Positions 26,666 to 37,396 of a DNA stretch of 64,000 nt are shown here, piece after piece. Below the pieces are notes generated by a model. The model did no database searches. It was not told where the DNA came from and saw only the letters and a program-made list of their open reading frames with translations. Origin of the DNA: Gammaproteobacteria bacterium (lineage in GTDB: Bacteria > Pseudomonadota > Gammaproteobacteria > CAJXQU01); the NCBI GenBank assembly GCA_965224825.1, contig CBDDAG010000003.1, positions 201,414-265,413 on the forward strand, read 5' to 3'. Numbering within the stretch: the stretch's first letter is position 1; every line of letters begins with the position of its first letter. The position numbers and the translations under genes are program-made.

Positions 26666-27214
26666 TTATTTGAGTTTCTTAACTCGTTCCTGAGCACTGA
26701 TTACATCTGTCAGACGAATACCAAATTTTTCATTGACGACCACGACTTCACCATGTGCAACCAACGTTCCATTAACCAGAACATCCAGTGGTTCACCAGC
26801 GAGTCGATCAAGTTCTACGACAGAACCCTGATTCAATTGCAAAAGGTTTCTGATTGCGATTTTTGTACTACCAATCTCAACAGCCAGCGTCACAGGAATA
26901 TCCAGAATCTGGTCAAGATTTCCACCATCGCCCCCTGCTCCGGCACCCGGATCAGCTGTTAATTGCTCAAATCCTGCAACACTAGCATCGACAGCAGCTT
27001 CGCCTTCAGCTTGCTCAGATAAAGCATCACCCCAATCGGCATCATCACCGCCAGCAGACTCACCTTCAGCCTGTTCAGCAAGTGCGTCACCCCAGTCAGC
27101 CTCTTCACCACCAGTAGCTTCACCTTCGGCTTGTTCAGCCATGGCATCACCCCAATCCGCATCTGCAGAAGCATCTTCCGATACCTCTTGATCTTCTGTT
27201 ACTTCGTCTGTCAT
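26666..27214 (-). CDS. fliN: flagellar motor switch protein FliN with N-terminal tandem 20-aa acidic repeats
   Basis: C-terminal SpoA domain (LDQILDIPVTLAVEIGSTKIAIRNLLQL...); N-terminal region has 3 copies of ADWGDALAEQAEGE..GG... Confidence 0.85.
   Translation of the reverse strand: MTDEVTEDQEVSEDASADADWGDAMAEQAEGEATGGEEADWGDALAEQAEGESAGGDDADWGDALSEQAEGEAAVDASVAGFEQLTADPGAGAGGDGGNLDQILDIPVTLAVEIGSTKIAIRNLLQLNQGSVVELDRLAGEPLDVLVNGTLVAHGEVVVVNEKFGIRLTDVISAQERVKKLK
27001..27180. repeat. three imperfect 60-bp tandem repeats inside fliN (encode the 20-aa ADWGDALAEQAEGE..GG.. repeats)
   Basis: The three 60-nt lines starting at 27001, 27061 and 27121 are clearly homologous (cacc-ttcagc-ctgttcagc...tcacccca-tc-gc). 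Confidence 0.7.
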
Positions 27215-27239: not shown

Positions 27240-28223
27240 CTAGTTGATGGAACCAAAAACCTCATCCACTTTCAAAGCACAATTTCCACGAGACTCTCCG
27301 TATCGAGCTTTGAAAACGGGTACACCATCAACTTTTGCTACTACATGATCTTCAATATCCACCGGAATAATGTCACCTTCCTGCATATCAAGAACATCAC
27401 GTAAAGTAATTTCTCTACTGGTTAAAATACTGTTTATTTCCACAGGTGCCGTCGCCAGCTCTTCGCGTAAAGACATCACCCAACGTTCATCCGTATCCGA
27501 TGCATCACTCTGCATACCGGCATCAAGCATTTCTCTGATCGGTTCGATGGTCGAATAAGGTAAAGCGATCTGTAACGAACCGCCTCCACCATCCAGATCA
27601 ACATGAAAATTAGAAACAATCATAACTTCACTGGGACTCACCACGTTTGCAAATTGTGGGTTCACTTCAGAATTCAAATACTGATAATCGATGTCCATAA
27701 CCGGCTTCCAGGCCTTTTGCATATCACCAAAAATCTCTTCCAGAACATTCATGACAATCCGCATTTCTGTCGCCGAAAAATCACGTCCCTCGATCTTGGT
27801 ATGAAAGCGTCCTGCACCACCGAAAAAATTATCCACCAATGAATAAACCAGTTTCGGATTCATTACGAAAAGTACTGTTCCGCGTAATGGGTTCATTTTC
27901 ACCATGTTCATATTTGAAGGCATAAACAAAGTGTGGATGTATTCTCCAAACTTCATCATTTCGATACCTTCAACCGAGATCTCAGGTGAACGTCTTAAAA
28001 TATTAAATAAGCTGACACGGAAATTTCGAGCAAATCGCTCATTGATCATCTCAAGTGTCGGTAGACGACCACGAACAATTCGATCCTGCGAATTAAAGTC
28101 ATAACCCTTCGCCGATCCGTCTTCAGCTTCCTCTTCCTGATTAGCGGTTTCGACATCACCGCCATCCACTCCATTTAAAAGAGCATCGATCTCATCCTGC
28201 GAAAGAATATCTGCGCCAGCCAT
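27240..28223 (-). CDS. fliM: flagellar motor switch protein FliM
   Basis: 327 aa with a CheY-P binding N-terminal LSQDEIDALL motif. Confidence 0.9.
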   Translation of the reverse strand: MAGADILSQDEIDALLNGVDGGDVETANQEEEAEDGSAKGYDFNSQDRIVRGRLPTLEMINERFARNFRVSLFNILRRSPEISVEGIEMMKFGEYIHTLFMPSNMNMVKMNPLRGTVLFVMNPKLVYSLVDNFFGGAGRFHTKIEGRDFSATEMRIVMNVLEEIFGDMQKAWKPVMDIDYQYLNSEVNPQFANVVSPSEVMIVSNFHVDLDGGGGSLQIALPYSTIEPIREMLDAGMQSDASDTDERWVMSLREELATAPVEINSILTSREITLRDVLDMQEGDIIPVDIEDHVVAKVDGVPVFKARYGESRGNCALKVDEVFGSIN

Positions 28224-28256
28224 ACTTTTTCCTTATCTTGTCCTTATGATCCGATT

Positions 28257-28793
28257 TTATTGCGTGACGAAAGATGTATATAAAAGGTCATCAACATTTT
28301 TTCCACCCATCGCCTCTTTCAAAACACTCTGAATTTCTCCAAGTGCCTCGGCTCGCATATTTTCTTTTCCATCTGCTGTTCCCAGATCTTCAAATTTCTG
28401 ACGACTGAAAACCATATTCACAACATGCTGGATCTTCGGAAGGTGTTTCTTAATATCATCCAGCCTGTCTTCATCTTCAGTCATCAAAGTCACTTCTGCT
28501 TTTAGAAAACGGGTTTTACCATCTGCCGTCTGATAATTAACCACGACTGGTTTTGCAAACGGTAGATAAGCAATATCCTTAGGCTCTGCCTCTTCTTCAG
28601 CAGCTTCTTCACCCTCAGCAACAGCCTCTTCATCACCGCCCATAAAGTACATCGCGCCACCAGCACCGCCACCAAGAACCAGCAAAGCACCAACGATCAT
28701 AATGATCAGCTTTTTCTTGCTACCACCAGACTTATTCTCTTCTGCGCCTTCTTCTGCACCTTCTTCAAGACCTTCTTCATTTTCATCAACCAT
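28257..28793 (-). CDS. fliL: flagellar basal body-associated protein FliL
   Basis: 178 aa, acidic N-terminus, single TM, FliL domain; first gene of the fliLMNOPQR operon. Confidence 0.75.
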   Translation of the reverse strand: MVDENEEGLEEGAEEGAEENKSGGSKKKLIIMIVGALLVLGGGAGGAMYFMGGDEEAVAEGEEAAEEEAEPKDIAYLPFAKPVVVNYQTADGKTRFLKAEVTLMTEDEDRLDDIKKHLPKIQHVVNMVFSRQKFEDLGTADGKENMRAEALGEIQSVLKEAMGGKNVDDLLYTSFVTQ

Positions 28794-28871
28794 CGTTCTG
28801 TCCTCTTCGTTTCACTTACGCTAAGGTAGCAATCGCCATGCCATAAGCCATTACCTATATCTAACAAACAG

Positions 28872-28887
28872 TTACAAGAATCCTGCC
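28872..28887 (-). promoter_or_regulatory. sigma54 (RpoN) -24/-12 promoter candidate upstream of fliL
   Basis: Minus strand reads TGGCAG-gattc-TTGTA (consensus TGGCAC-N5-TTGCA) about 65 nt upstream of the fliL ATG. Confidence 0.4.
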
Positions 28888-28998
28888 AATCCCATGACAG
28901 GCAATTGACTCTTTTTTCACCTCAAAAAACACGCACAATTTGATCCAGGTCTGCAGCGCATTACAATGAGGAATAACAGACAAAGAAATCAAAGAGTG

Positions 28999-29403
28999 AT
29001 GACGCACAATAAAGACAAAGAAATCAAAGAGTTAAGAATAGACAAATGGCTCTGGGTAACTCGCTTCTACAAAACACGTGGACTCGCCTCAGAAGCGATC
29101 AAAGGAGGGAAAATTGACGTCAATGGATCGCATGCAAAACCATCAAAAACTGTGCAGATCAATGATCTGATCAAGATCAAAAAAAGCCCCTTCGTCTATG
29201 AAATTACCGTCAAAGGAGTGTCAAAACATCGTGGATCTGCCAGTGTTGCCGTTCTCCTTTACGAAGAATCAGAACAAAGTATTGCCACCAGAGCAAAACT
29301 TTCAGAACAACTAAAAGCCGAATCAGCCTTACGCCCGGCAACACCAGGACGACCCAGTAAACGTGATCGAAGAAATATTATTCGCTTTACACGGAAGAGT
29401 TAG
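28999..29403 (+). CDS. hslR: ribosome-associated heat shock protein Hsp15 (S4-domain)
   Basis: RIDKWLWVTRFYKTRGLASEAIKGGKIDVNG... parallels E. coli Hsp15. The ORF-track start at 28966 is probably a frame extension created by a 19-nt direct repeat; start placed at ATG 28999. Confidence 0.7.
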   Translation: MTHNKDKEIKELRIDKWLWVTRFYKTRGLASEAIKGGKIDVNGSHAKPSKTVQINDLIKIKKSPFVYEITVKGVSKHRGSASVAVLLYEESEQSIATRAKLSEQLKAESALRPATPGRPSKRDRRNIIRFTRKS

Positions 29404-29409
29404 ATCACG

Positions 29410-30021
29410 ATGACGCTGAGCAATATCGTCGCACTATTTACCACCATGCTTGTTCTGGCAGCAATCCCCAGTATCAGTGTGTTGGCCGTCACAGCAAGAT
29501 CAGCTTCATCCGGATTTGTTCACGGTGTTTTTACAACCATTGGGATCGTGCTTGGCGATATTATTTTTATACTGATCGCTATTTTTGGTTTATCGATCCT
29601 TGCTGAATCTATGGGCAGTTTCTTTGTCCTGATCAAATATCTTGGAGGCACTTATCTGATCTGGCTGGGAATTTCTTTGTGGCGATCAAAACCACTAAAT
29701 ACGGAAACTGAAAGTGCAACAGAAACTTCCCTGTTATCCAGTTTCCTGACAGGACTTTTTATTACATTAGGCGATCAAAAAGCAATCCTGTTTTATCTTG
29801 GGTTCTTCCCTGCTTTTCTTGATCTATCGACACTCTCTTTTGCTGACACAAGTATCATTATAATGATCGCTATCATGACAGTTGGTGGTGTAAAACTTTG
29901 CTATGCATTCATGGCGAGTAGATCGAAATTGTTTATTAGCCCCATAGCTAAAAAAAGAATAGACATTATTGCGGGCGGTGTGATGATTGTTATTGGGATG
30001 GTTTTAATGATAAAGGCTTAA
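29410..30021 (+). CDS. LysE/RhtB family amino-acid exporter
   Basis: 203 aa, 6 TM helices; N-terminal pattern typical of RhtB/LysE translocators. Confidence 0.75.
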   Translation: MTLSNIVALFTTMLVLAAIPSISVLAVTARSASSGFVHGVFTTIGIVLGDIIFILIAIFGLSILAESMGSFFVLIKYLGGTYLIWLGISLWRSKPLNTETESATETSLLSSFLTGLFITLGDQKAILFYLGFFPAFLDLSTLSFADTSIIIMIAIMTVGGVKLCYAFMASRSKLFISPIAKKRIDIIAGGVMIVIGMVLMIKA

Positions 30022-30079
30022 AAAAAATGTATTAGCAAGAACTAAAGATATTACTTTTACACCAATCTCTAAATCTTTC

Positions 30080-30110
30080 AGAAAATAAAAAGCCCCCGCT
30101 GGGAGGGCTT
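30080..30110 (-). terminator. strong minus-strand intrinsic terminator (GCCCUCCCAGCGGGGGC + UUUUUAUUUU)
   Basis: The hairpin is better as minus-strand RNA (G-U wobble versus a C-A mismatch on plus) and the U-tract is present only on the minus strand. Confidence 0.6.
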
Positions 30111-30192
30111 TGGTCGCTTAGAAGCGTTGCCTACGAAATAACAATTTCATTGGTATGAAAAGCAAAATCAATAGACCTTAGTCGGTTACACT
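30082..30192 (-). ncRNA. candidate tracrRNA-like / repeat-derived small RNA (about 110 nt) divergent from cas9
   Basis: The 5' end is an exact copy of repeat nt 1-20 (plus-strand 30173-30192 is its reverse complement). It sits 8 nt downstream of a TATACT -10 and ends at the terminator at 30080-30110. The tail contains a CGCUU-CU-AAGCG hairpin. Pairing geometry with the array is non-canonical (see findings). Confidence 0.3.
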
Positions 30193-30200
30193 AAGAATTC

Positions 30201-30229
30201 AGTATAAAGGGAGAGCAACTCATGAGCAA
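30201..30229 (-). promoter_or_regulatory. sigma70-like promoter (TTGCTC-17nt-TATACT) on the minus strand, overlapping the cas9 RBS and start codon
   Basis: -10 TATACT = plus 30201-30206; -35 TTGCTC = plus 30224-30229; 17-nt spacer. The predicted TSS is at the first base of the half-repeat. Confidence 0.4.
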
Positions 30230-33200
30230 GAAAATCCTTGGCCTTGATTTAGGTAGTAATTCAATCGGATGGGCTTTACTTGATGAATCAAATGGTAAAG
30301 CAAGCGGAATTATTAATATTGGAAGTCGAATCTTTATTAAAGCGGTAGAAGAAAAAGTTCCGACACCAAAAAATGTAAAGCGCCGTGATATGCGGCTCGG
30401 TAGGCGTGTTATTCAACGCCGAGCAAGACGTAAACAGCGCATGTTAAATTATCTTGTGTCGCTCAATTTACTACCAAAAGAATTGCAAGGTCATACTCAA
30501 CCAGAAATTGAATTGAATAAATTAGGCGATCCTTATGAGTTGAGGATGAAAGGTTTATATGCACAGTTAACCCCGCATGAATTTGGCCGAGTATTACTTC
30601 ATTTTGTCTCAAGGCGTGGTTTTCTGAGCACCAAAAAACAAGTGGCAGGTGACTTAATTGATGATCCTGATACCGTTGCTTTTTTGAATGACCTGGATGA
30701 CAAGCCGACAAAGGACAAAGAAGAAGGCGCATTCAAAGCAGATATTAGCGAAGTAAGAAAATCTATAAATGAAGCTGGTGCAAGAACATTGGGTGAATAT
30801 CTGCACAAGTTAACGCAAGGTGAATGTAAACGGAATCGAAGCCATGAAGGTGGGCACCTGCGAACTGATAGAAAAATGTATCAAGATGAATTAGATCTGA
30901 TTTGGCAACAGCAAAGTCAGTATTTCATAGATCTTCCTGATGACTTTATGGCAAAAGATAAAGGCATCAAAAAGATCATATTTTATCAACGCCCACTAAA
31001 ACTTAAAAAAGACAGGATAGGAAAATGCTCGTTAGAACCTAAAAATAATCGTGCAGCACTGGCCTGGTTAGAGGTGCAACGTTTTCGTTATTTACAAGAT
31101 GTGAATAATTTACAATATTTTGAACGACATTCTGACCAATGGCTAAATATAAGTGATGAAGATAAAGGAAAGCTGACAGAATATTTTGAGCACCACTCTA
31201 AAATCACCATTACAGCATTAAAAAAACTGTTTGGTTTTGACAAACTCACCAAGATTAATTTAGAAGCTAAAAACCTTAAAGGCAACATTACTGCCTGTGA
31301 AATTAGATCAGTCTTAGGTGAGCAGTGGGATAATTATTCGGGTGAAGATCAAATCAAACTGGTTGAAGACATATTATCGATCAAGAAAAAATCAGCACTA
31401 AAAACAAGACTCATCAATCATTGGAATTTAGGTACATCAAAAGCCATAGAATTATGCCTACTTGAATTTGAACCTGGTCATAGCAATCTTTCTTTAAAAG
31501 CAATTAACAAGCTTCTACCTTTTTTACAGCAAGGTTTAATTTATAGCAGAAAAGATAAAGCAACAGGTGAGCTGGGTGCATTGCAAGCGGCGGGCTATGA
31601 TGATGAAATTCAAGATCAAGAAGACTGCGACAAATTAGGAAAACCGATAACCACCAGTAATCCAATTGTTAATAAAGGCATGCACGAACTGAAACGTGTT
31701 ATCAATGCCATTATTAAGGAATATGGCAAGCCGGATATTATTCGTATTGAAATGGCGCGCGATTTGGAGATGAATACCAAACGCTATAAAGAAAATGAGG
31801 CCAGACAGAAAAAAAATAAAGAAGAAAATGAAAAAGCAGTTAAAGCCTACAAGGATCTAAATTTAGGCAAATACCCTAGTTATGATGACAAAATAAAATA
31901 TCGTCTTTGGCTGGAGCAAGATCGCCGATGTGCCTACAGTAATAAACCTATTCCTCTTAATACGATATTCACCGCCGACGTTGAAATAGATCATGTGTTG
32001 CCATATAAAAAATCACTTGATGATTCTTATATGAACAAAGTCCTATGTTACACCTCAGAAAATCGTAACAAAGGCGATAGAACACCTAAAGATGCATGGG
32101 GCGGCAATGAGGACAAATGGACTCAAATTACCCATGCTATAAGCGGCTGGAAAGGTGTTGATTCTAAAGTAAAACGTTTTTTTCAAACAGAAACCGATCT
32201 CCAGCAACGTGATTTTATTTCATCACAACTCAATGATACGCGCTATATTTCAAAACTAGCCTTAGATTATGTTAAACAACTAGGCTGTGATGTTTCAGTA
32301 ACAAAAGGGTTTGTAGTTTCACAAATTCGTCACCAATGGGGATTGAATGATCTTATTGGCGAAACAGATAAAAAAGAGCGTACCGATCATCGTCATCATG
32401 CTATTGATGCGGTGGTGATCGCAGCAACTTCTCGTAGTTTATACACAAAAGCAGTGAGCGAAATCGAACGAGGCAAGCTGAAAATTAAACCGCCTTATCC
32501 TGAACTTAGAAATGAACTTGCCGAACAACTTAAACACACCATCATTTCACATGCCAGCCAACGAAAATTATCCGGTGGTTTGCATGAGGAAACGGGGGCA
32601 GGATATATTGAAAAGCATGGTGGTCTGGTTTACCGGAAAACCCTAAATCCAAATTTCAGCACTAAAAAAGCAAAAAGTATTGTTGATGACACTGTACAAA
32701 AAATAGTTCTCGAACATTTAGGAAATCATGATGACGATCCTAAAAAAGCTTTTGCTGATGGTTTTGCTGTTTATCACCAGGATGGTAAAACACCGATCAA
32801 ACGGGTACGTATTTTGCAGTCTAAAACTACACGTAAAAAACTTGACGCAAGCAAATTTGGTGTCAAAGACAAAGAAGGTAAGGTTTTCAAATGGCTTGCC
32901 TACGGTAATTTACATCACGTGGAAATTATCAGGAATAAGAAAACAGGAAAATATAGCGGTAAATTTGTAACAACGATGGAAGCCCATCACAGAGTGAAAG
33001 GTATTGGTATGCAAAAACAGAATATCATCAAAACGGATCATGGAAGTGATTATGAATTTTTGATGGCCTTGCATATTAATGATCTTGTGAGTATTGAAAA
33101 AGAAAAGACGCAAGTTTTTTATCGAGTTCAAAAACTAGACTCAGGTTCAAATAGAATGGTCTTGAGATTACACACTGCATCTACACTCAACAATAAAGAT

Positions 33201-33290
33201 GAAGAAATATATATTTCAATTAATGAAAAATCTTTTTCCAGTTTAAAACTCCAGAAACTTCAAATGAACGCTATAGGAAAGATCTTCTAG
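30222..33290 (+). CDS. cas9: Cas9 endonuclease, type II-C (1022 aa)
   Basis: RuvC-I ILGLDLGSNSIGWA (catalytic Asp); Arg-rich bridge helix RRDMRLGRRVIQRRARRKQR; RuvC-II IIRIEMARD; HNH DVEIDHVLPY...NKVLCYTSENRNKGDRTP; RuvC-III HHAIDAVVIA. Followed by cas1-cas2 with no csn2 or cas4. Confidence 0.95.
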   Translation: MSKKILGLDLGSNSIGWALLDESNGKASGIINIGSRIFIKAVEEKVPTPKNVKRRDMRLGRRVIQRRARRKQRMLNYLVSLNLLPKELQGHTQPEIELNKLGDPYELRMKGLYAQLTPHEFGRVLLHFVSRRGFLSTKKQVAGDLIDDPDTVAFLNDLDDKPTKDKEEGAFKADISEVRKSINEAGARTLGEYLHKLTQGECKRNRSHEGGHLRTDRKMYQDELDLIWQQQSQYFIDLPDDFMAKDKGIKKIIFYQRPLKLKKDRIGKCSLEPKNNRAALAWLEVQRFRYLQDVNNLQYFERHSDQWLNISDEDKGKLTEYFEHHSKITITALKKLFGFDKLTKINLEAKNLKGNITACEIRSVLGEQWDNYSGEDQIKLVEDILSIKKKSALKTRLINHWNLGTSKAIELCLLEFEPGHSNLSLKAINKLLPFLQQGLIYSRKDKATGELGALQAAGYDDEIQDQEDCDKLGKPITTSNPIVNKGMHELKRVINAIIKEYGKPDIIRIEMARDLEMNTKRYKENEARQKKNKEENEKAVKAYKDLNLGKYPSYDDKIKYRLWLEQDRRCAYSNKPIPLNTIFTADVEIDHVLPYKKSLDDSYMNKVLCYTSENRNKGDRTPKDAWGGNEDKWTQITHAISGWKGVDSKVKRFFQTETDLQQRDFISSQLNDTRYISKLALDYVKQLGCDVSVTKGFVVSQIRHQWGLNDLIGETDKKERTDHRHHAIDAVVIAATSRSLYTKAVSEIERGKLKIKPPYPELRNELAEQLKHTIISHASQRKLSGGLHEETGAGYIEKHGGLVYRKTLNPNFSTKKAKSIVDDTVQKIVLEHLGNHDDDPKKAFADGFAVYHQDGKTPIKRVRILQSKTTRKKLDASKFGVKDKEGKVFKWLAYGNLHHVEIIRNKKTGKYSGKFVTTMEAHHRVKGIGMQKQNIIKTDHGSDYEFLMALHINDLVSIEKEKTQVFYRVQKLDSGSNRMVLRLHTASTLNNKDEEIYISINEKSFSSLKLQKLQMNAIGKIF

Positions 33291-34192
33291 TGATAAAACG
33301 TATTATCGACATTAGCGAACAAGCCTATGTTCATATGAAACATAGGCAACTATTGATCGATAAAGAAGGAAAAACTGTTGGAAAAATTCCGATAGAAGAT
33401 CTTGGTGTATTAATCTTTCAGCATCCTGCAATCGTCGTCACTCAGGCCGTTATCATTGCATGTCAGGAAAACAATGTTGTAATTGTTTTTTGTGACTCCC
33501 GACATTTACCCTATTCTGTAGTTCTACCCATTAGTGAAGGACATAGTCTTCATACAAAAGTTTTGCGACAACAACTAGCGATCACTACACCAACAAAAAA
33601 ACGCTTGTGGCAACAGATCGTAAAATACAAAATCAGAGAACAGGCCAATACTTTGAGCCTGGCAGGTAAGAACAATAAAGCTTTATTGCGACTTGAGGGA
33701 AAAGTAAAGACAGGTGACTTACAAAATCATGAAGCACAGGCAGCTAAAGTTTATTGGCGCTTATTATTTGGTGATGAGTTTAGACGTGATGTAGATGCAG
33801 AAGGATTAAACAGTATCCTGAATTATGGTTATGCCATTATGCGTGCAATGGTTGCCAGAGCAATTGTTGGTAGTGGACTACACCCTGCTCTCGGTTTGCA
33901 TCACCGAAACCAATACAACGGTCTTTGCCTTGCTGATGATCTTATGGAGCCATTTCGCCCCTGGGTAGATCTTACCGTTTATGAGTTGTTCGATGAAAGC
34001 AAAACACTAGAAATTAATACTGAAATCAAACAAGTTCTACTAGGTATGTTAAGTAAAAAAGTGATCTGGAAGGGAGAAAGTATGCCACTAATGATTGCTT
34101 GTCATTCCTTGACTGCAGATCTCAAAAGAGCCTATCAAGACACGAAAGAAAAACTTTATTTTCCACAACTGGAAAACCGGATCGCTGCTTGA
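33290..34192 (+). CDS. cas1: CRISPR integrase Cas1 (GTG start overlapping the cas9 stop by 1 nt)
   Basis: 300 aa; typical type II Cas1 length and conserved acidic and His residues; operon position. Confidence 0.9.
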   Translation: MIKRIIDISEQAYVHMKHRQLLIDKEGKTVGKIPIEDLGVLIFQHPAIVVTQAVIIACQENNVVIVFCDSRHLPYSVVLPISEGHSLHTKVLRQQLAITTPTKKRLWQQIVKYKIREQANTLSLAGKNNKALLRLEGKVKTGDLQNHEAQAAKVYWRLLFGDEFRRDVDAEGLNSILNYGYAIMRAMVARAIVGSGLHPALGLHHRNQYNGLCLADDLMEPFRPWVDLTVYELFDESKTLEINTEIKQVLLGMLSKKVIWKGESMPLMIACHSLTADLKRAYQDTKEKLYFPQLENRIAA

Positions 34193-34212
34193 ATTTCGGC
34201 GGACTGAATACT

Positions 34213-34518
34213 ATGTGGGTAATCGTACTTTTTGATCTTCCTACGGATACAAAAGAAGCCAGAAAACAATATTCCAAATTCCGAAAGTTTTTACTTGATG
34301 ATGGTTTCACCATGATGCAGTATTCAGTTTATATGCGTCATAGTTCTAGCGAAGAAAACGCACAAGTTCATATCAAACGTGTAAAATCAACATTACCCGC
34401 AGATGGTGAAGTACGAGTTTTCAAAATAACCGATAAACAGTTTGGGAAAATAGAAGTTTTCTATGGTAAAAAACAAAAGCCTGTTGAAGAAACACCAGAA
34501 CAACTCCTGTTTTTCTGA
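34213..34518 (+). CDS. cas2: Cas2
   Basis: 101 aa MWVIVLFDLPTDTKEARKQYSKFRKFLLDDGF... (Cas2 fold) starting 21 nt after the cas1 stop. The ORF-track 34099 start is an out-of-frame overlap with cas1. Confidence 0.85.
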   Translation: MWVIVLFDLPTDTKEARKQYSKFRKFLLDDGFTMMQYSVYMRHSSSEENAQVHIKRVKSTLPADGEVRVFKITDKQFGKIEVFYGKKQKPVEETPEQLLFF

Positions 34519-34534
34519 TCGAAAAACAGGAGTT
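34502..34534. promoter_or_regulatory. perfect 14-bp inverted repeat spanning the cas2 stop codon, in the array leader
   Basis: AACTCCTGTTTTTC-TGATC-GAAAAACAGGAGTT; the cas2 TGA lies in the loop. Followed by a TATAAAT -10-like box (34541-34547) 21 nt before repeat 1. Confidence 0.5.
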
Positions 34535-34567
34535 TCCCCTTATAAATCAAACTACTCTATGCGCTGT

Positions 34568-34999
34568 AGTGTAACCGACTAAGGTCTACGCGCAATTCAC
34601 AACTAATTTTGCTGGTGACAATTCTGGGTTAGGAGTGTAACCGACTAAGGTCTACGCGCAATTCACAACCACCGAACGGATGGGGCTGCAAGTGTCGGGA
34701 GTGTAACCGACTAAGGTCTACGCGCAATTCACAACATGAAGATTACTGCAAACAGATGGTTGCAGAGTGTAACCGACTAAGGTCTACGCGCAATTCACAA
34801 CCCATTACTATAACGGGCTAATGTAATACATAGTGTAACCGACTAAGGTCTACGCGCAATTCACAACAATAATGACTCAATCTACGGTAACTCCCGTAGT
34901 GTAACCGACTAAGGTCTACGCGCAATTCACAACCTGCCAGTGATTGGTTCAGATATCCGCAGTAGTGTGACATGATCAAATGATTTAACCCCTTCCATA
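34568..34999 (+). CRISPR. CRISPR array: 6 identical 36-nt repeats (AGTGTAACCGACTAAGGTCTACGCGCAATTCACAAC), 30-nt spacers, plus a degenerate terminal repeat
   Basis: Repeats at 34568, 34634, 34700, 34766, 34832 and 34898 (period 66). Six unique spacers. Terminal unit 34964-34999 AGTGTGACATG... matches only about 15 of 36 positions. The reverse orientation reads GTTGTGAATTGCGCGTAGACCTTAGTCGGTTACACT (type II-C-like GTTGTG start). Confidence 0.95.
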
Positions 35000-35020
35000 A
35001 CGGAAGGGGTTTCTGTTTTT
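34989..35020 (+). terminator. plus-strand intrinsic terminator immediately after the array
   Basis: CCCCTTCC-ATAAC-GGAAGGGG followed by TTTCTGTTTTTATT. Confidence 0.7.
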
Positions 35021-35050
35021 ATTAGATTTAACTTCTTAGAAACTCTAAGA

Positions 35051-36265
35051 TCAATATTTAGCACTCGACTCATCATAAAGAAGTCCTTTTTCTTTACTCT
35101 GTGACCGAATTGAACTAAAGATCTGAGCATCGAGTGAATCTTTATCAGCACCAGTTTCTTCCACTTTCTTTTTCAAAAAAGCATCTCGTTCCTCAGCGAT
35201 ACTTTGAATATTTTTTCTCAAGTCATCACGTTCTCTGGCTGCCTTTTCTACATATTCTTCCTGTGCTTTTGGTGACATAGCCTGCATGGGTTCTGGGAGT
35301 TCATTCTTTTCAATGTTGGAAAGATCAACACGTCCACTGGTGATAGCTTCGACCAGTTCACCTTCACCAAGGAAGTTTGCTTTACCACTTGTTGAGCTAT
35401 TAAATGCAGCACGACGAGCCTTTGATTCATTACTGGCTTCTCGATGAAGTTTATCTGTCACCACCAATTTATTGGCCTGTTTTAGTTTTGCTTCCTTGTC
35501 GCCATAGTAGATTCGCGTATCGTCCAATTTGGCAGATAACTCAGCCAGTTTTTTATCAAACGGTGTCGCAATAGCAACAGCATTTCCTGATTGCTCTACC
35601 TGAAAATAATTCCCCTGACCGAGGCTGGCAATTTCCTGCCAATTTGCTGTGGCGTTTTGATTTTGTCCGCATTGAATGGCATTAATAATAATGCCTTTTT
35701 GTTTTGCAATGGCCATCGTTTCCGGATATTTCACATCATCCTGATAATCCATATGGGGGGGCGCATCACCCACCAGAAAGATTACTTTGTAGGTTTGCTG
35801 ATCCTGATTCCATGACATTTTATGGACAGCGTCATAGAGTGCCTGATTGACACTCTCAGGACCATCACCACCGCCATCGGCTTTAAAGTCCATTAATTTC
35901 GAATACATGGAATCCAGATCGTTGGATAATTCCACGGTCTGAGTGACATAAGCATCACCGCGATCTCGATAGGCAACCAACCCCATTTTTATGTCCGGTG
36001 CATTTTGTGCCGAGGCCATAGTACTGGCAATCGACCAGATTTTTTCTTTCGCCGCATGGATCAGATCACCCATACTGCCTGTGGTATCAAGTACAAAAAC
36101 CACTTCGATCTTTGGATGCTCATTCGCCACCGGCATGAGAACGGCTGGATCGATAATTGGTGGCGTATTAGTTGGATTAGCGATCGCCTGTTTAGCGGCT
36201 GGAAAAAATGCAACAGTTGCAGCGGTTGCGGCGAAAATACTTATTGCGAATATTTTTTTGTTCAT
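35051..36265 (-). CDS. secreted von Willebrand factor A (VWA) domain protein with C-terminal charged coiled-coil tail
   Basis: AAGGAG RBS plus ATG at 36265 (MNKKIFAISIFAATAATVA signal). MIDAS DTTGSM; 404 aa. Confidence 0.7.
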   Translation of the reverse strand: MNKKIFAISIFAATAATVAFFPAAKQAIANPTNTPPIIDPAVLMPVANEHPKIEVVFVLDTTGSMGDLIHAAKEKIWSIASTMASAQNAPDIKMGLVAYRDRGDAYVTQTVELSNDLDSMYSKLMDFKADGGGDGPESVNQALYDAVHKMSWNQDQQTYKVIFLVGDAPPHMDYQDDVKYPETMAIAKQKGIIINAIQCGQNQNATANWQEIASLGQGNYFQVEQSGNAVAIATPFDKKLAELSAKLDDTRIYYGDKEAKLKQANKLVVTDKLHREASNESKARRAAFNSSTSGKANFLGEGELVEAITSGRVDLSNIEKNELPEPMQAMSPKAQEEYVEKAARERDDLRKNIQSIAEERDAFLKKKVEETGADKDSLDAQIFSSIRSQSKEKGLLYDESSAKY

Positions 36266-36293
36266 GATTAAATCTCCTTTTATGTTGTGCAAT

Positions 36294-36868
36294 TTAGTGT
36301 GTTGAAAGTTTTCGGACGGCGGCTTCTGCCTCACGATAAGCGCGTTGAAAATCGACATCGCTTGTGTCCAAGGTTGATCTGTTAGACGTAGATTGTTTGA
36401 TGCTGGTTGGTATCGCTACAAACAAAGCCTGTGTCAGAAAGAAACACCAGATGGTTAAAAATAGACTTCCCGTATAACTGGCTGCCCAGAATGCTGTCGC
36501 AACAGATAACCCGTTCAAACCAAGATCGGCTAGCGATGCAAACAAGCTGGAATAAAAATACATTGATCGAACTAACCAGATTGTGATCAGATGTATCAAT
36601 ACAAAAAGTGTAATAGACGGCCAGAAAAACCAGGTGGCCATAGCAATAACTGACCAACTGACGATGACTGTCAATCGACCTATACGTTCTTTGCTTCTGC
36701 TCAATAGATACAGGATATATCCAAGACTGAATCCACTGATCAATAACCTGATGATGAAACTATCAGAAAACATTGATGACAAAACAAAGTAGCCAACGCT
36801 GCCAATAAAACTACTGATCAGTGCAACGATTACACCTTCAAAAAAAGTGACACTTTTCGTTTTCATGA
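36294..36868 (-). CDS. polytopic membrane protein (5 TM), unknown function
   Basis: ATGA stop/start overlap with the upstream pspA-like gene (translational coupling). Confidence 0.5.
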
Positions 36869-37396
36869 CTGACTCCATTTTTGTTTTTCATGCAGGAAGG
36901 CAACTTCTATATCTTCGTCCTGCACAGTAAATGAAGAGTCACCCCAACTAGCTACCGATTGATCAGTGTTGTCTTGTGTAAATATTTCAGCTTTTTGCTT
37001 CATACTGCCAAGTTGAGATTGTTGTTCTTTAAGCTGTGTTTTTAGATGATCAATACTCTCTTCCAATACAGATGTTTTTCTGGATAAGGATTTCAGTGTT
37101 TGTTGTCCTTCCAGTTTTCTTTTGATCAACGTTCGAGCCAGATCATCTTTCTTCGACTTGAAGCAGAGCGCCAGTTGATCTTCAATTTCAGTGAGAGACT
37201 GTTTTACTTCCTCTTCCTTACCGGAAAGCTGCTTATGCTCATATTCCTGTAACTTGATCTGTCGCTCATCATGAGCCAGCGTTTCTTCCATTTCACGAAT
37301 AGCCTGTTTGAGCAGCATTTCAGGTTCTTCGATCTGATCCAGTACGGCATTCATATCCGCGTGAAACAATCTTGAGATTCTTGTGATTAAAGCCAT
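36863..37396 (-). CDS. PspA/IM30-family protein (short, 177 aa)
   Basis: N-terminus MALITRISRLFHADMNAVLDQIEEPEMLLKQAIREMEETL parallels E. coli PspA [40 protein letters not shown]; coiled-coil throughout. Confidence 0.7.
   Translation of the reverse strand: MALITRISRLFHADMNAVLDQIEEPEMLLKQAIREMEETLAHDERQIKLQEYEHKQLSGKEEEVKQSLTEIEDQLALCFKSKKDDLARTLIKRKLEGQQTLKSLSRKTSVLEESIDHLKTQLKEQQSQLGSMKQKAEIFTQDNTDQSVASWGDSSFTVQDEDIEVAFLHEKQKWSQS

What the first reader, a model, noticed from the sequence alone, without database searches (positions are those of the whole stretch)
30076..30229. Inverted 20-nt half-repeat 29 nt upstream of the cas9 ATG, bracketed by a divergent sigma70-like promoter and a strong minus-strand terminator: a tracrRNA-like small RNA whose pairing geometry does not fit the canonical Cas9 model
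Plus-strand 30173-30192 (AGACCTTAGTCGGTTACACT) is the exact reverse complement of CRISPR repeat nt 1-20 (AGTGTAACCGACTAAGGTCT).

Evidence for a minus-strand small RNA:
- On the minus strand the 20-mer sits 8 nt downstream of TATACT (plus 30201-30206).
- TTGCTC lies 17 nt further upstream (plus 30224-30229), directly on top of the cas9 start codon.
- About 90 nt downstream is GCCCUCCCAGCGGGGGC followed by UUUUUAUUUU (30080-30110), a far better terminator for the minus strand than for the plus strand.
- This predicts a ~110-nt minus-strand RNA: 5' half-repeat, structured tail (CGCUU-CU-AAGCG hairpin, plus a GCAACGCU octamer that also occurs in the N. meningitidis tracrRNA tail), then terminator.
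- That architecture matches a tracrRNA gene divergent from cas9, as in S. pyogenes.

The conflict:
- As a minus-strand RNA the 20-mer is identical, not complementary, to the repeat 5' part of plus-strand crRNAs.
- It is complementary only to the 3' 20 nt of minus-strand crRNA repeats.
- Cas9 systems require the anti-repeat to pair with the repeat 5' portion.
- The only transcript with canonical complementarity would be a plus-strand RNA reading through 30173-30192, i.e. the cas9 5' UTR itself. It has only a weak TGGTATGAA -10 at 30151-30159 and no room for a tracr tail before the ATG.
- No other anti-repeat exists in the locus intergenic regions.

Possible explanations:
- a non-canonically placed tracrRNA;
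- a cas9 mRNA leader carrying a perfect anti-repeat, allowing crRNA-dependent RNase III control of cas9;
- a relic leader plus first repeat now producing a tracrRNA-titrating decoy RNA (scaRNA-like).

The promoter overlapping the cas9 RBS and ATG also implies transcriptional interference between the sRNA and cas9.
Basis: partly seen in the sequence, partly recalled or inferred. Interest (0 to 1): 0.85.

Follow-up and report, generated by a model that had tools for sequence, protein, structure and literature searches.

The report
Ordinary type II-C tracrRNA gene
The inverted half-repeat just upstream of cas9 is the start of a normal tracrRNA gene whose pairing with the CRISPR RNA is canonical once the array is read on the minus strand, so it is a well-supported but ordinary feature.

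Summary
Plus 30172-30192 is an exact inverted copy of 21 nt of the CRISPR repeat. It has a sigma70-like promoter on the minus strand and a minus-strand intrinsic terminator about 90 nt downstream.

The claimed conflict with the canonical Cas9 model does not hold.
- The anti-repeat does not stop at the perfect 21-mer. It runs imperfectly to about tracr nt 41 and pairs with the guide-proximal 5' part of the repeat: UGUGAA:UUCAUA, then GCG:UGC.
- A nexus-like hairpin, a second hairpin and the terminator follow.

Comparative evidence:
- The same element lies on the minus strand upstream of cas9 in 73 of 80 related loci. The other 7 lack enough upstream sequence.
- It co-varies with each locus's own repeat: 96% of cells paired against 38-45% for slid controls, and 20 pairs with compensatory changes.
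- G.U pairs outnumber A.C mismatches 120 to 10. This shows that the minus-sense RNAs are the pairing partners.

Verdict: a new member of a known kind. It is the tracrRNA of an uncharacterised marine and methanotroph Cas9 clade.

One mildly interesting point remains. The tracr -35 sits on the cas9 start codon in nearly all loci.

The parts
30082..30192 (-). tracrRNA gene. The predicted primary transcript is about 105-111 nt, from about 30192 to the U-run at 30082-30091.
   Evidence: A profile of the element hits the minus strand upstream of cas9 in the window and in 73 of 80 related loci. The predicted fold with the repeat gives z = -9.6.
30172..30192 (-). Anti-repeat, perfect part (tracr nt 1-21). 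It pairs with repeat nt 16-36 to form the upper stem.
   Evidence: Exact match. Across loci 98% of cells are paired and 11 pairs show compensatory changes.
30152..30171 (-). Anti-repeat, imperfect part (tracr nt 22-41: UUGAUUUUGCUUUUCAUACC). It pairs with the guide-proximal repeat nt 1-15. It forms a middle stem (GCG:UGC), a bulge, a U-rich internal loop and a lower stem (UGUGAA:UUCAUA).
   Evidence: RNAcofold and MFE folds. RNAalifold consensus. The lower stem is 100% paired in 40 loci and the middle stem 88% paired, with 3 covarying pairs.
30130..30153 (-). Nexus-like hairpin directly after the anti-repeat (CCAAUGAAAU-UGUU-AUUUCGUAGG).
   Evidence: MFE fold. 93% of cells are paired, with A-U to G-C swaps at two pairs.
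30115..30126 (-). Second tail hairpin (CGCU-UCUA-AGCG).
   Evidence: 96% of cells are paired, with 2 covarying pairs.
30082..30111 (-). Intrinsic terminator (AAAGCCCUCCC-AGC-GGGGGCUUU plus a U-run).
   Evidence: Terminator scan. The stem is conserved in all 40 aligned loci; some carry an inserted extension.
30201..30206 (-). tracrRNA promoter -10 (TATACT), 8 nt upstream of tracr nt 1.
   Evidence: 68 of 74 loci have TAnnnT 4-10 nt upstream of tracr nt 1. 39 of them have TG within the 3 nt before it.
30224..30229 (-). tracrRNA promoter -35 (TTGCTC), 17-nt spacer. It is the complement of cas9 codons 1-3.
   Evidence: 57 of 74 loci have TTGnnn at 16-18 nt spacing. Loci where the tracr gene is moved away from cas9 still keep a TTGCA -35.
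30222..33290 (+). cas9 (1022 aa, type II-C).
   Evidence: ORF. Pfam Cas9_a, HNH_4 and RuvC_III. The nearest solved structures are Nme-type Cas9s.
33290..34192 (+). cas1.
   Evidence: ORF. Pfam Cas_Cas1 on the identical contig.
34213..34518 (+). cas2.
   Evidence: Gene call and Pfam CRISPR_Cas2 on the identical contig, mapped to window coordinates.
34568..34933 (-). CRISPR array: 6 repeats and 5 spacers. The functional strand is inferred to be minus. The crRNA repeat is GUUGUGAAUUGCGCGUAGACCUUAGUCGGUUACACU. It carries TTG (nt 9-11) and TAnAnT (nt 31-36) in a promoter-like arrangement.
   Evidence: Strand inferred from G.U against A.C (120 to 10). Invariant T31, A32, A34, T36 and T9, T10, G11.
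34964..34971 (-). Truncated, degenerate terminal repeat at the cas-distal end (plus AGTGTGAC). It keeps part of the promoter-bearing half of the repeat.
   Evidence: Sequence. The same kind of truncated distal repeat occurs in L007, L014, L015, L021, L022 and L061.

Best explanation
The element is the tracrRNA gene of a type II-C CRISPR-Cas9 locus (cas9-cas1-cas2-array). It is transcribed divergently from cas9 on the minus strand.

**Transcription unit.** A sigma70-type promoter drives it: -35 TTGCTC overlapping the cas9 start codon, and -10 TATACT. Transcription starts at about 30192 and ends at the intrinsic terminator at 30111-30082.

**Orientation of the array.** The array is also read on the minus strand, opposite to the cas operon. 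It probably uses promoters embedded in each repeat (TTG at repeat nt 9-11, TAnAnT at nt 31-36), as in N. meningitidis and C. jejuni.

**Pairing.** The first roughly 41 nt of the tracrRNA pair with the whole 36-nt repeat.
- nt 1-21 pair perfectly with the repeat 3' part and form the upper stem. By analogy this is the part where RNase III cuts.
- nt 22-41 pair imperfectly with the repeat 5' part, which stays attached to the guide. This part comprises a middle stem, a tracr-side bulge, a U-rich internal loop and a lower stem.
- A nexus-like hairpin, a second hairpin and the terminator hairpin form the Cas9-binding tail.

**Shown here:** the sequence anatomy, its conservation, its covariation with the repeat, and the strand asymmetry of the pairing.

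**Inferred:** actual transcription, RNase III processing, Cas9 binding, and repeat-promoter activity.
For: 1. **Exact 21-nt inverted repeat copy.** It is unique in the window.
2. **Whole-repeat pairing.** Cofolding with the minus-sense repeat pairs the entire repeat: -44.3 kcal/mol against -14.7 for the plus-sense repeat. A repeat-GAAA-tracr chimera folds at -67.7 kcal/mol, z = -9.6, into lower stem, bulge, upper stem, nexus and hairpins.
3. **Presence in relatives.** 80 related cas9 loci were fetched. The element is on the minus strand upstream of cas9 in 73 of them, mostly 28-32 nt from the ATG. The 7 without it start inside cas9 or have only 179 nt of upstream sequence.
4. **Covariation.** In 40 loci with an array, the anti-repeat tracks the locus's own repeat. 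On alignment A2, 96.4% of cells are paired against 38-45% when the partner is slid. 20 pairs and 106 cells show changes on both sides. 0 of 500 shuffles reach the observed value.
5. **Strand test.** There are 120 G.U cells against 10 A.C cells. Pairing between plus-strand transcripts would invert that ratio.
6. **Promoter conservation.** 68 of 74 loci have a -10, and 57 of 74 also have a -35 at 16-18 nt spacing.
7. **Terminator.** Predicted by the scan and conserved.
8. **Locus type.** The locus is cas9-cas1-cas2 only, and the nearest solved Cas9s are Nme-type.
9. **Literature.** Arrays are transcribed opposite to the cas operon in Nme, Cje and Fno. Anti-repeats lie mostly upstream of cas9 in types II-A and II-C. 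The degenerate-last-repeat rule mispredicts orientation in Nme and Cje (PMC3737331). Promoters sit inside each repeat in Nme and Cje (PMC5965381).
10. **Array ends.** Degenerate or truncated repeats lie at the cas-distal end here too.
11. **Array terminator.** A hairpin with a U-run oriented for the minus strand follows the array.
Against: - There is no RNA data, so transcription, the 5' and 3' ends and processing are all predicted.
- The guide-proximal lower stem (6-7 bp with one G.U) is almost invariant across loci. It is supported by conservation and by A-U to G.U changes only, not by compensatory changes.
- In the window itself the middle stem is weaker than in most orthologs, because the repeat reads GCGCGU rather than GCAGAU or GCGGGU.
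- Covariation of the upper stem alone cannot separate 'complement of the minus-sense repeat' from 'copy of the plus-sense repeat'. The strand call rests on the G.U against A.C asymmetry, the tail and terminator strand, and analogy with Nme and Cje.
- An independent PAM-side test of array orientation failed for lack of protospacer hits.
- No Rfam family matches. This is expected, because tracrRNAs lack a common sequence or structure.
Confidence: 0.9

Rival explanations
1. Besides being the tracrRNA gene, the region could act as a regulatory overlap with cas9. The tracr promoter sits on the cas9 RBS and start codon. If cas9 transcription starts upstream of 30172, the cas9 5' leader would carry a repeat-like 21-mer perfectly complementary to the tracrRNA 5' end. 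That would allow promoter occlusion, or RNase III-mediated antisense control of cas9 by tracrRNA. A variant of this idea: the plus-strand copy of the repeat -10 box (TACACT, 30187-30192) is itself the cas9 promoter.
For: - The -35 of the tracr promoter overlaps the cas9 ATG, and the distance from the anti-repeat to the ATG is held at 27-32 nt in most loci.
- The scan found no sigma70-like plus-strand promoter between the upstream gene and cas9. The cas9 promoter is therefore unidentified and must lie in or near the tracr gene.
- The TAnAnT box is invariant in the repeat, and hence also in the complement of the anti-repeat.
Against: - The TTGCTC conservation is confounded with the conserved Met-Ser-Lys codons of Cas9.
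- The plus-strand TACACT has no recognisable -35. Its conservation is already explained by pairing with the repeat.
- Loci where the tracr gene sits 64-420 nt from cas9 (L016, L019, L021, L052-L054) show that the tight overlap is not obligatory.
- There is no RNA data.
Confidence: 0.15
2. The element is a relic (leader plus partial first repeat) or a scaRNA-like decoy. On this view it is identical in sense to plus-strand crRNA repeats and titrates a true tracrRNA encoded elsewhere.
For: The 5' 21 nt are identical to the plus-strand repeat 5' end. Truncated repeats that keep the same half occur at array ends. A plus-strand terminator follows the array, so plus-strand array transcripts probably exist.
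Against: - The 3' two-thirds of the element form a conserved, covarying tail of nexus, hairpin and terminator, typical of tracrRNAs.
- The sequence after the 21-mer keeps complementarity to the minus-sense repeat 5' part through G.U pairs (48 G.U and 0 A.C cells in the lower stem). These would be mismatches in the opposite sense.
- No other anti-repeat exists in the 64-kb window.
- In the 73 loci where the element was found, the profile gave one significant match each, always on the minus strand upstream of cas9. The only exception is a weak repeat-derived match inside the L024 array.
- The repeat starts with GUUGUG only in the minus sense.
Confidence: 0.02
3. The inverted 20-mer is a chance match or an assembly artefact.
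For: None beyond its short length.
Against: 0 matches are expected in shuffles. The same architecture occurs in 73 independent assemblies from different taxa.
Confidence: 0.005

Closest known systems
N. meningitidis type II-C CRISPR-Cas9 (tracrRNA, and crRNAs made from repeat-embedded promoters; Zhang et al. 2013, as summarised in PMC5965381 and PMC3737331)
   Same: - A cas9-cas1-cas2-array locus, with Nme-type Cas9s as the nearest solved structures.
- A 36-nt repeat starting with GUUGU, and an array read opposite to the cas operon.
- A -10-like box at the repeat 3' end (TACACT here; TACAAT or TATAAT in some orthologs).
- The degenerate repeat sits at the end that would mispredict orientation.
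- A tracrRNA of about 110 nt whose 5' end pairs with the repeat 3' end and whose anti-repeat spans the whole repeat.
   Different: - The tracr gene lies upstream of cas9 and is divergent from it. From my own recollection the Nme gene lies downstream of cas9; I did not check this here.
- The tail sequence and hairpins differ. Only the octamer GCAACGCU is shared with the window's RNA, and it is not conserved in orthologs.
- The upper stem is perfect over 21 bp.
- The repeat lacks the full TGn extended -10 motif: it has G at -14 only.
S. pyogenes type II-A tracrRNA (Deltcheva et al. 2011; modular sgRNA anatomy of lower stem, bulge, upper stem, nexus and hairpins; the anatomy is cited from my own knowledge of Briner et al. 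2014)
   Same: The gene is encoded upstream of cas9 on the opposite strand. The duplex has the same modules: lower stem, bulge, upper stem, then a nexus-like hairpin and 3' hairpins ending in a terminator.
   Different: In S. pyogenes the array is transcribed in the same direction as the cas genes from a leader promoter. There is no sequence similarity, and no Rfam family match was found for this element.
F. novicida scaRNA, and the long-form tracrRNA that auto-represses cas9 in S. pyogenes (Workman et al. 2021; both cited from my own knowledge)
   Same: Both are small RNAs or RNA isoforms in type II loci with repeat-related sequence next to the cas9 promoter region. They show that such overlaps can be regulatory.
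   Different: The element here has a full anti-repeat and a tracr tail, and it is the only anti-repeat in the locus. Nothing here shows targeting of the cas9 promoter.

Membership tests
tracrRNA (type II CRISPR-Cas) | An anti-repeat complementary to the cognate CRISPR repeat, including the guide-proximal 5' part of the repeat | tested here: met
   The whole 36-nt repeat pairs with tracr nt 1 to about 41. Across 40 loci the lower stem is 100% paired, the middle stem 88% and the upper stem 98%.
tracrRNA (type II CRISPR-Cas) | Encoded within or next to a cas9 locus | tested here: met
   The tracr 5' end is 29 nt upstream of the cas9 ATG. The position is the same in 73 of 80 related loci.
tracrRNA (type II CRISPR-Cas) | The anti-repeat co-evolves with the repeat of the same locus | tested here: met
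   Locus-specific repeat variants are mirrored in the anti-repeat. 14 of the 32 repeat:anti-repeat pairs show changes on both sides (20 pairs and 106 cells over the whole structure). Whole-structure controls: 0 of 500 shuffles reach the observed value, and slid versions give 38-45% paired.
tracrRNA (type II CRISPR-Cas) | An independent transcription unit with its own promoter and an intrinsic terminator | tested here: met
   Tested in silico only. The -10 and -35 elements are conserved. The terminator is predicted and conserved.
tracrRNA (type II CRISPR-Cas) | A structured 3' tail (nexus and hairpins) downstream of the anti-repeat | tested here: met
   The nexus-like hairpin is 93% paired, with A-U to G-C swaps. 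Hairpin 2 is 96% paired. The terminator stem is 97% paired.
tracrRNA (type II CRISPR-Cas) | Expressed, co-processed with pre-crRNA by RNase III, bound by Cas9 and required for interference | not testable with these tools
   This needs RNA-seq or northern blots, an rnc mutant, Cas9 co-immunoprecipitation and a cleavage assay.
Type II-C CRISPR-Cas of the Nme/Cje kind (array read antisense to the cas operon, promoters in the repeats) | Only cas9, cas1 and cas2 are present, with no csn2 or cas4 | tested here: met
   ORFs and Pfam calls. The flanking genes are a LysE-family gene and an unrelated convergent gene.
Type II-C CRISPR-Cas of the Nme/Cje kind (array read antisense to the cas operon, promoters in the repeats) | The array is transcribed opposite to the cas operon | tested here: met
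   The evidence is indirect.
- The tracr strand is fixed by its promoter, tail and terminator.
- G.U against A.C is 120 to 10, which requires minus-sense crRNA.
- A hairpin with a U-run oriented for the minus strand follows the array.
- No RNA data are available.
Type II-C CRISPR-Cas of the Nme/Cje kind (array read antisense to the cas operon, promoters in the repeats) | A promoter element embedded in each repeat | tested here: inconclusive
   - The motif is present. Positions T31, A32, A34 and T36 are invariant while nt 33 and 35 vary. TTG at nt 9-11 is invariant although unpaired, with a 16-nt spacer.
- Truncated distal repeats keep this half.
- There is no full TGn extended -10, and promoter activity is untested.
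scaRNA-like decoy or relic repeat | A repeat-derived RNA that needs a separate tracrRNA as its partner | tested here: not met
   No second anti-repeat exists in the window. The element itself carries the conserved tracr tail.
Curated Rfam RNA families | A match to a covariance model at or near the gathering score | tested here: not met
   Over this region there is only a spurious Phe_leader hit: 22.7 bits against a gathering score of 55, E = 3.4. tracrRNAs are known to lack a common sequence or structure (PMC3737331).

The most novel reading that the evidence does not exclude
The most novel reading not excluded is that the conserved overlap is a regulatory device. The tracrRNA -35 sits on the cas9 start codon. 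The tracr transcription start and a repeat-derived -10 box pointing at cas9 lie within about 15 bp of each other. RNA polymerase might then fire either tracrRNA or cas9 from mutually exclusive promoters. Alternatively, tracrRNA might pair with a repeat-like 21-mer in the cas9 leader. Either mechanism would couple Cas9 level to guide-RNA supply in this type II-C clade.
Probability: 0.12. Interest if true: 0.5.

Novelty: new member of a known kind. Interest (0 to 1): 0.15.

Why it matters
Mostly it does not. The element is a textbook tracrRNA, and the apparent paradox dissolves.

There is some practical value. The analysis defines the crRNA orientation, the full repeat:anti-repeat duplex and the tail modules for a large uncharacterised clade of compact Cas9s of about 1020-1040 aa. 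These come from marine sulfur-oxidiser and methanotroph lineages, sponge symbionts, Binatia and others. That is the information needed to design a single-guide RNA for them.

It also gives a clean comparative example of two things. Array orientation in type II-C loci can be called from the G.U against A.C asymmetry of the anti-repeat. And the degenerate-last-repeat rule mispredicts orientation in such loci.

The conserved overlap of the tracr promoter with the cas9 start codon is a modest lead for work on cas9 regulation.

Tried and rejected
- **Rfam scan of 28000-37000 at E <= 10.** It gave only spurious sub-threshold hits and no CRISPR-related family.
- **PAM-side test of array orientation.**
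  - 24-mers from all 5 window spacers had no exact match in IMG/VR viral contigs.
  - The whole arrays of L030 and L068 against the phage collection gave one non-credible hit (E = 0.2) and nothing.
  - I abandoned the test.
- **A second anti-repeat.** A search for GGTCTACGCGCAATTCACAAC with up to 3 mismatches, and a window-wide duplex scan, found none outside the array and this element.
- **A plus-strand tracrRNA reading into cas9.** I rejected this. There is no room for a tail, no terminator, and the G.U pairs would become A.C mismatches.
- **Plus-strand crRNA paired with the minus-strand RNA.** The duplex energy is only -14.7 kcal/mol against -44.3.
- **A cas9 promoter.**
  - The scan found no convincing sigma70-like site on the plus strand between 30022 and 30221.
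  - TGGTATGAA lacks the final T of a -10 element.
  - TACACT inside the anti-repeat has no -35.
- **Literature search for the repeat sequence.** It found only a genome paper listing the L019 array, with no mention of tracrRNA.
- **The insert between the tracr gene and cas9 in L019 and L021.** It is AT-rich and has no conserved ORF.
- **The tracr RNA folded alone.** It is not unusually stable (z = -1.5). The signal lies in the duplex and in covariation, not in single-sequence energy.
Full report
**1. What is in the sequence**

The window holds a compact type II-C CRISPR locus.
- cas9 lies at 30222-33290 (1022 aa), cas1 at 33290-34192 and cas2 at 34213-34518.
- The array lies at 34568-34933, with six 36-nt repeats and 30-nt spacers.
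- No csn2 or cas4 is present.
- The nearest solved Cas9 structures are Nme-type II-C enzymes.

- AGTGTAACCGACTAAGGTCT occurs once on the minus strand at 30173-30192 and six times on the plus strand in the array. Shuffles give 0 expected.
- Identity continues for one more base, so the match is 21 nt (30172-30192).

- A minus-strand terminator lies at 30111-30089, followed by a T-run.
- TATACT lies 8 nt upstream of the 20-mer.
- TTGCTC lies 17 nt further up and overlaps the cas9 ATG.

**2. The supposed conflict**

On that basis a minus-strand RNA could pair only with the 3' 20 nt of a minus-strand crRNA repeat, which would be non-canonical.

I folded the minus-strand RNA (30192 to 30082) with the minus-sense repeat GUUGUGAAUUGCGCGUAGACCUUAGUCGGUUACACU. 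The result is a duplex over the entire repeat:
- tracr nt 1-21 pair perfectly with repeat nt 16-36;
- U23.G15 and G24-C14 follow;
- a 4-nt tracr bulge comes next;
- then U29.G13, G30-C12 and C31-G11;
- a UU/UU internal loop follows;
- then a lower stem of U34-A8, U35-A7, C36-G6, A37-U5, U38.G4 and A39-U3.

The duplex energy is -44.3 kcal/mol, against -14.7 for the plus-sense repeat. A repeat-GAAA-tracr chimera folds at -67.7 kcal/mol with z = -9.6.

The anti-repeat is about 41 nt long, and the repeat 5' portion, the part that stays attached to the guide, is paired. This gives the usual lower stem, bulge and upper stem layout. Directly after it come a nexus-like hairpin (CCAAUGAAAU-UGUU-AUUUCGUAGG), a second hairpin (CGCU-UCUA-AGCG) and the terminator hairpin.

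Pairing of the tracrRNA 5' end with the repeat 3' end is what every primary tracrRNA:pre-crRNA duplex does. It is not a deviation.

**3. Comparative test**

The Cas9 has thousands of homologs. I fetched 80 genome loci with relatives at 38-79% identity. They come from marine sulfur oxidisers, methanotrophs, sponge symbionts, Binatia and others.

- **Arrays.** 42 of the fetched loci had a full-length 36-nt repeat at 66-bp period downstream of cas2, in the same orientation as in the window. Three more arrays were truncated by contig ends.
- **Presence of the element.** A profile of the element finds it on the minus strand upstream of cas9 in 73 of 80 loci plus the window. Its 5' end is mostly 28-32 nt from the ATG. 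The 7 loci without it start inside cas9 or have only 179 nt of upstream sequence.
- **Tracking of the repeat.** The 5' 20 nt follow each locus's own repeat. Examples:

| Locus | Repeat | Element |
|---|---|---|
| L022 | ATTGTAACCGACTATCGCCT | ATTGTAACCGACTATCGCTT |
| L023 | AGTGTAACCAACTATAGCCT | identical |
| L044 | AGTGTAACTCACCAAGGTCT | identical |
| L064 | ACTTTAACCGACTACAGTTT | AGTTTAACCGACTACAGTTT |

- **Consensus structure.** I aligned 40 distinct repeat-GAAA-tracr chimeras (A2). RNAalifold pairs the whole repeat with the tracr 5' region.
- **Pair counts for an explicit structure**:
  - 96.4% of cells are paired, against 38-45% when the 3' partner is slid by 1-3 columns.
  - 20 pairs and 106 cells have changes on both sides.
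  - 0 of 500 shuffles reach the observed value.

| Helix | Cells paired | Variation |
|---|---|---|
| Lower stem | 100% | nearly invariant; 7 loci have G.U at the pair that is A-U in the other 33 |
| Middle stem | 88% | 3 covarying pairs |
| Upper stem | 98% | 11 covarying pairs |
| Nexus-like hairpin | 93% | A-U to G-C swaps |
| Hairpin 2 | 96% | 2 covarying pairs |
| Terminator | 97% | 2 covarying pairs |

- **The bulge.** Loci such as L023, L037 and L043 lack the 4-nt bulge and pair continuously from repeat nt 11 to 36.

**4. Which strand of the array is read**

Upper-stem covariation cannot by itself tell 'complement of the minus-sense repeat' from 'copy of the plus-sense repeat'. Several independent points settle the matter.

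1. Among the 32 repeat:anti-repeat pairs in 40 loci there are 120 G.U cells and only 10 A.C cells. The lower stem has 48 G.U and 0 A.C. Between plus-sense transcripts these would swap, so selection acts on the minus-sense RNAs.
2. The promoter, the conserved tail and the terminator of the small RNA are all on the minus strand.
3. In the minus sense the repeat begins with GUUGUG, like other type II repeats (my own knowledge).
4. The minus-sense repeat carries a promoter-like pattern.
   - T31, A32, A34 and T36 are invariant while nt 33 and 35 vary.
   - TTG at nt 9-11 is invariant although unpaired.
   - The spacer between the two elements is 16 nt.
   - Variants of the box include TACAAT and TATAAT.
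5. Degenerate or truncated repeats sit at the cas-distal end. The truncated ones keep exactly the half that carries the -10-like box.
6. A hairpin straddling the cas2 stop codon is followed by a U-rich run on the minus strand in many loci. It fits a terminator for minus-strand array transcripts. This point is confounded with the Cas2 C-terminal codons.

All of this matches published type II-C biology.
- Anti-repeats lie mostly upstream of cas9 in types II-A and II-C.
- The degenerate-last-repeat rule mispredicts orientation in Nme and Cje (PMC3737331).
- Promoters lie within each repeat in Nme and Cje (PMC5965381).

**5. Promoter of the small RNA**

- Across 74 loci, 68 have TAnnnT 4-10 nt upstream of tracr nt 1, and 39 of these have TG within the 3 nt before it.
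- 57 also have TTGnnn at 16-18 nt spacing.
- The -35 is usually TTGCTC or TTGCCC, the complement of cas9 codons 1-3 (ATG AGC AAG). Its conservation is therefore partly confounded with the Cas9 N-terminus.
- Loci where the tracr gene is displaced from cas9 (L016, L052-L054) still keep a TTGCA -35 and a good -10. L019 and L021 keep a TATAAT -10.

**6. What remains open**

- **The cas9 promoter was not identified.**
  - The scan found no sigma70-like plus-strand site between the upstream LysE-family gene and cas9.
  - The complement of tracr nt 1-6 puts a copy of the repeat -10 box (TACACT, 30187-30192) 30 nt before the ATG. It lacks a -35, and its conservation is already explained by pairing.
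- **Possible interference.** The tight overlap of the tracr promoter with the cas9 start could cause promoter competition. If cas9 transcription starts further upstream, it could allow antisense pairing between tracrRNA and the cas9 leader. I give it about 0.12-0.15.
- **Experimental steps are inferred.** Transcription, RNase III processing, Cas9 binding and repeat-promoter activity were not shown.
- **The PAM-side test found no protospacers**.

**7. Comparison and verdict**

- The element works like a tracrRNA. By every sequence-level criterion I could test, it is one.
- Its locus behaves like the Nme/Cje kind of type II-C system.
- It differs from Nme in gene position (upstream and divergent) and in tail sequence.
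- No Rfam family matches, and I found no paper describing the tracrRNA of this clade.

It is therefore a new member of a known kind, with low surprise value. The practical output is a defined guide-RNA architecture for a large clade of compact Cas9s.

Noticed in passing
window 34502-34535 (around the cas2 stop codon at 34516-34518); the same position in most of L001-L080: A strong palindromic hairpin (AACTCCTGTTTTTC-TGATC-GAAAAACAGGAGTT) straddles the cas2 stop codon. Orthologs have a hairpin there with different stem sequences. Many (for example L001, L068, L019) have a GCUUUUUC run after it on the minus strand. It looks like the terminator of minus-strand array transcripts, but it overlaps the Cas2 C-terminal codons.
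   Followed up: partly
window 34964-34971; the cas-distal array ends of L007, L014, L015, L021, L022 and L061: Terminal repeats at the cas-distal end are truncated. They keep only the plus-strand 5' half, which is the minus-strand 3' half carrying the TAnAnT box. Point-mutated repeats are also concentrated at that end. This is the piece needed to drive the most distal crRNA from a repeat-embedded promoter.
   Followed up: partly
window 34987-35011 (+): A good plus-strand intrinsic terminator lies just after the array (10-bp stem, then TCTGTTTTTA). It suggests that the cas operon reads through the array antisense to the crRNAs and stops here. The convergent gene at 35051-36358 (-) has no U-run of its own after this hairpin.
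   Followed up: no
window 30187-30192 (+): The complement of tracr nt 1-6 is a copy of the repeat's -10-like box (TACACT). It points at cas9, 30 nt before the ATG and only about 9 bp from the opposing tracr -10. It could be the otherwise unidentified cas9 promoter, but it has no -35.
   Followed up: partly
L019 3582-4001 and L021 3603-4001; also L016 (134 nt), L052-L054 (64-70 nt): In the Gsub sponge symbiont (L019) and the Ruthturnera MAG (L021), an AT-rich insert of about 370-400 nt with no conserved ORF separates the tracr gene from cas9. The tracr gene keeps its own TATAAT -10 there. The overlap with the cas9 start codon is therefore common but not obligatory.
   Followed up: partly
alignment A2 columns 62-67 (window 30167-30171): The 4-nt tracr-side bulge (UUGA, UCGA or UCAA) is absent in L023, L037 and L043 and reduced in L074 and L080. 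In the three that lack it, repeat nt 11-36 pair continuously. The bulge module is therefore variable within this Cas9 clade.
   Followed up: no
window 26992-27163: A 60-nt tandem repeat, 2.9 copies at 75% match, lies in what appears to be coding sequence upstream of the CRISPR locus. It is unrelated to the finding.
   Followed up: no
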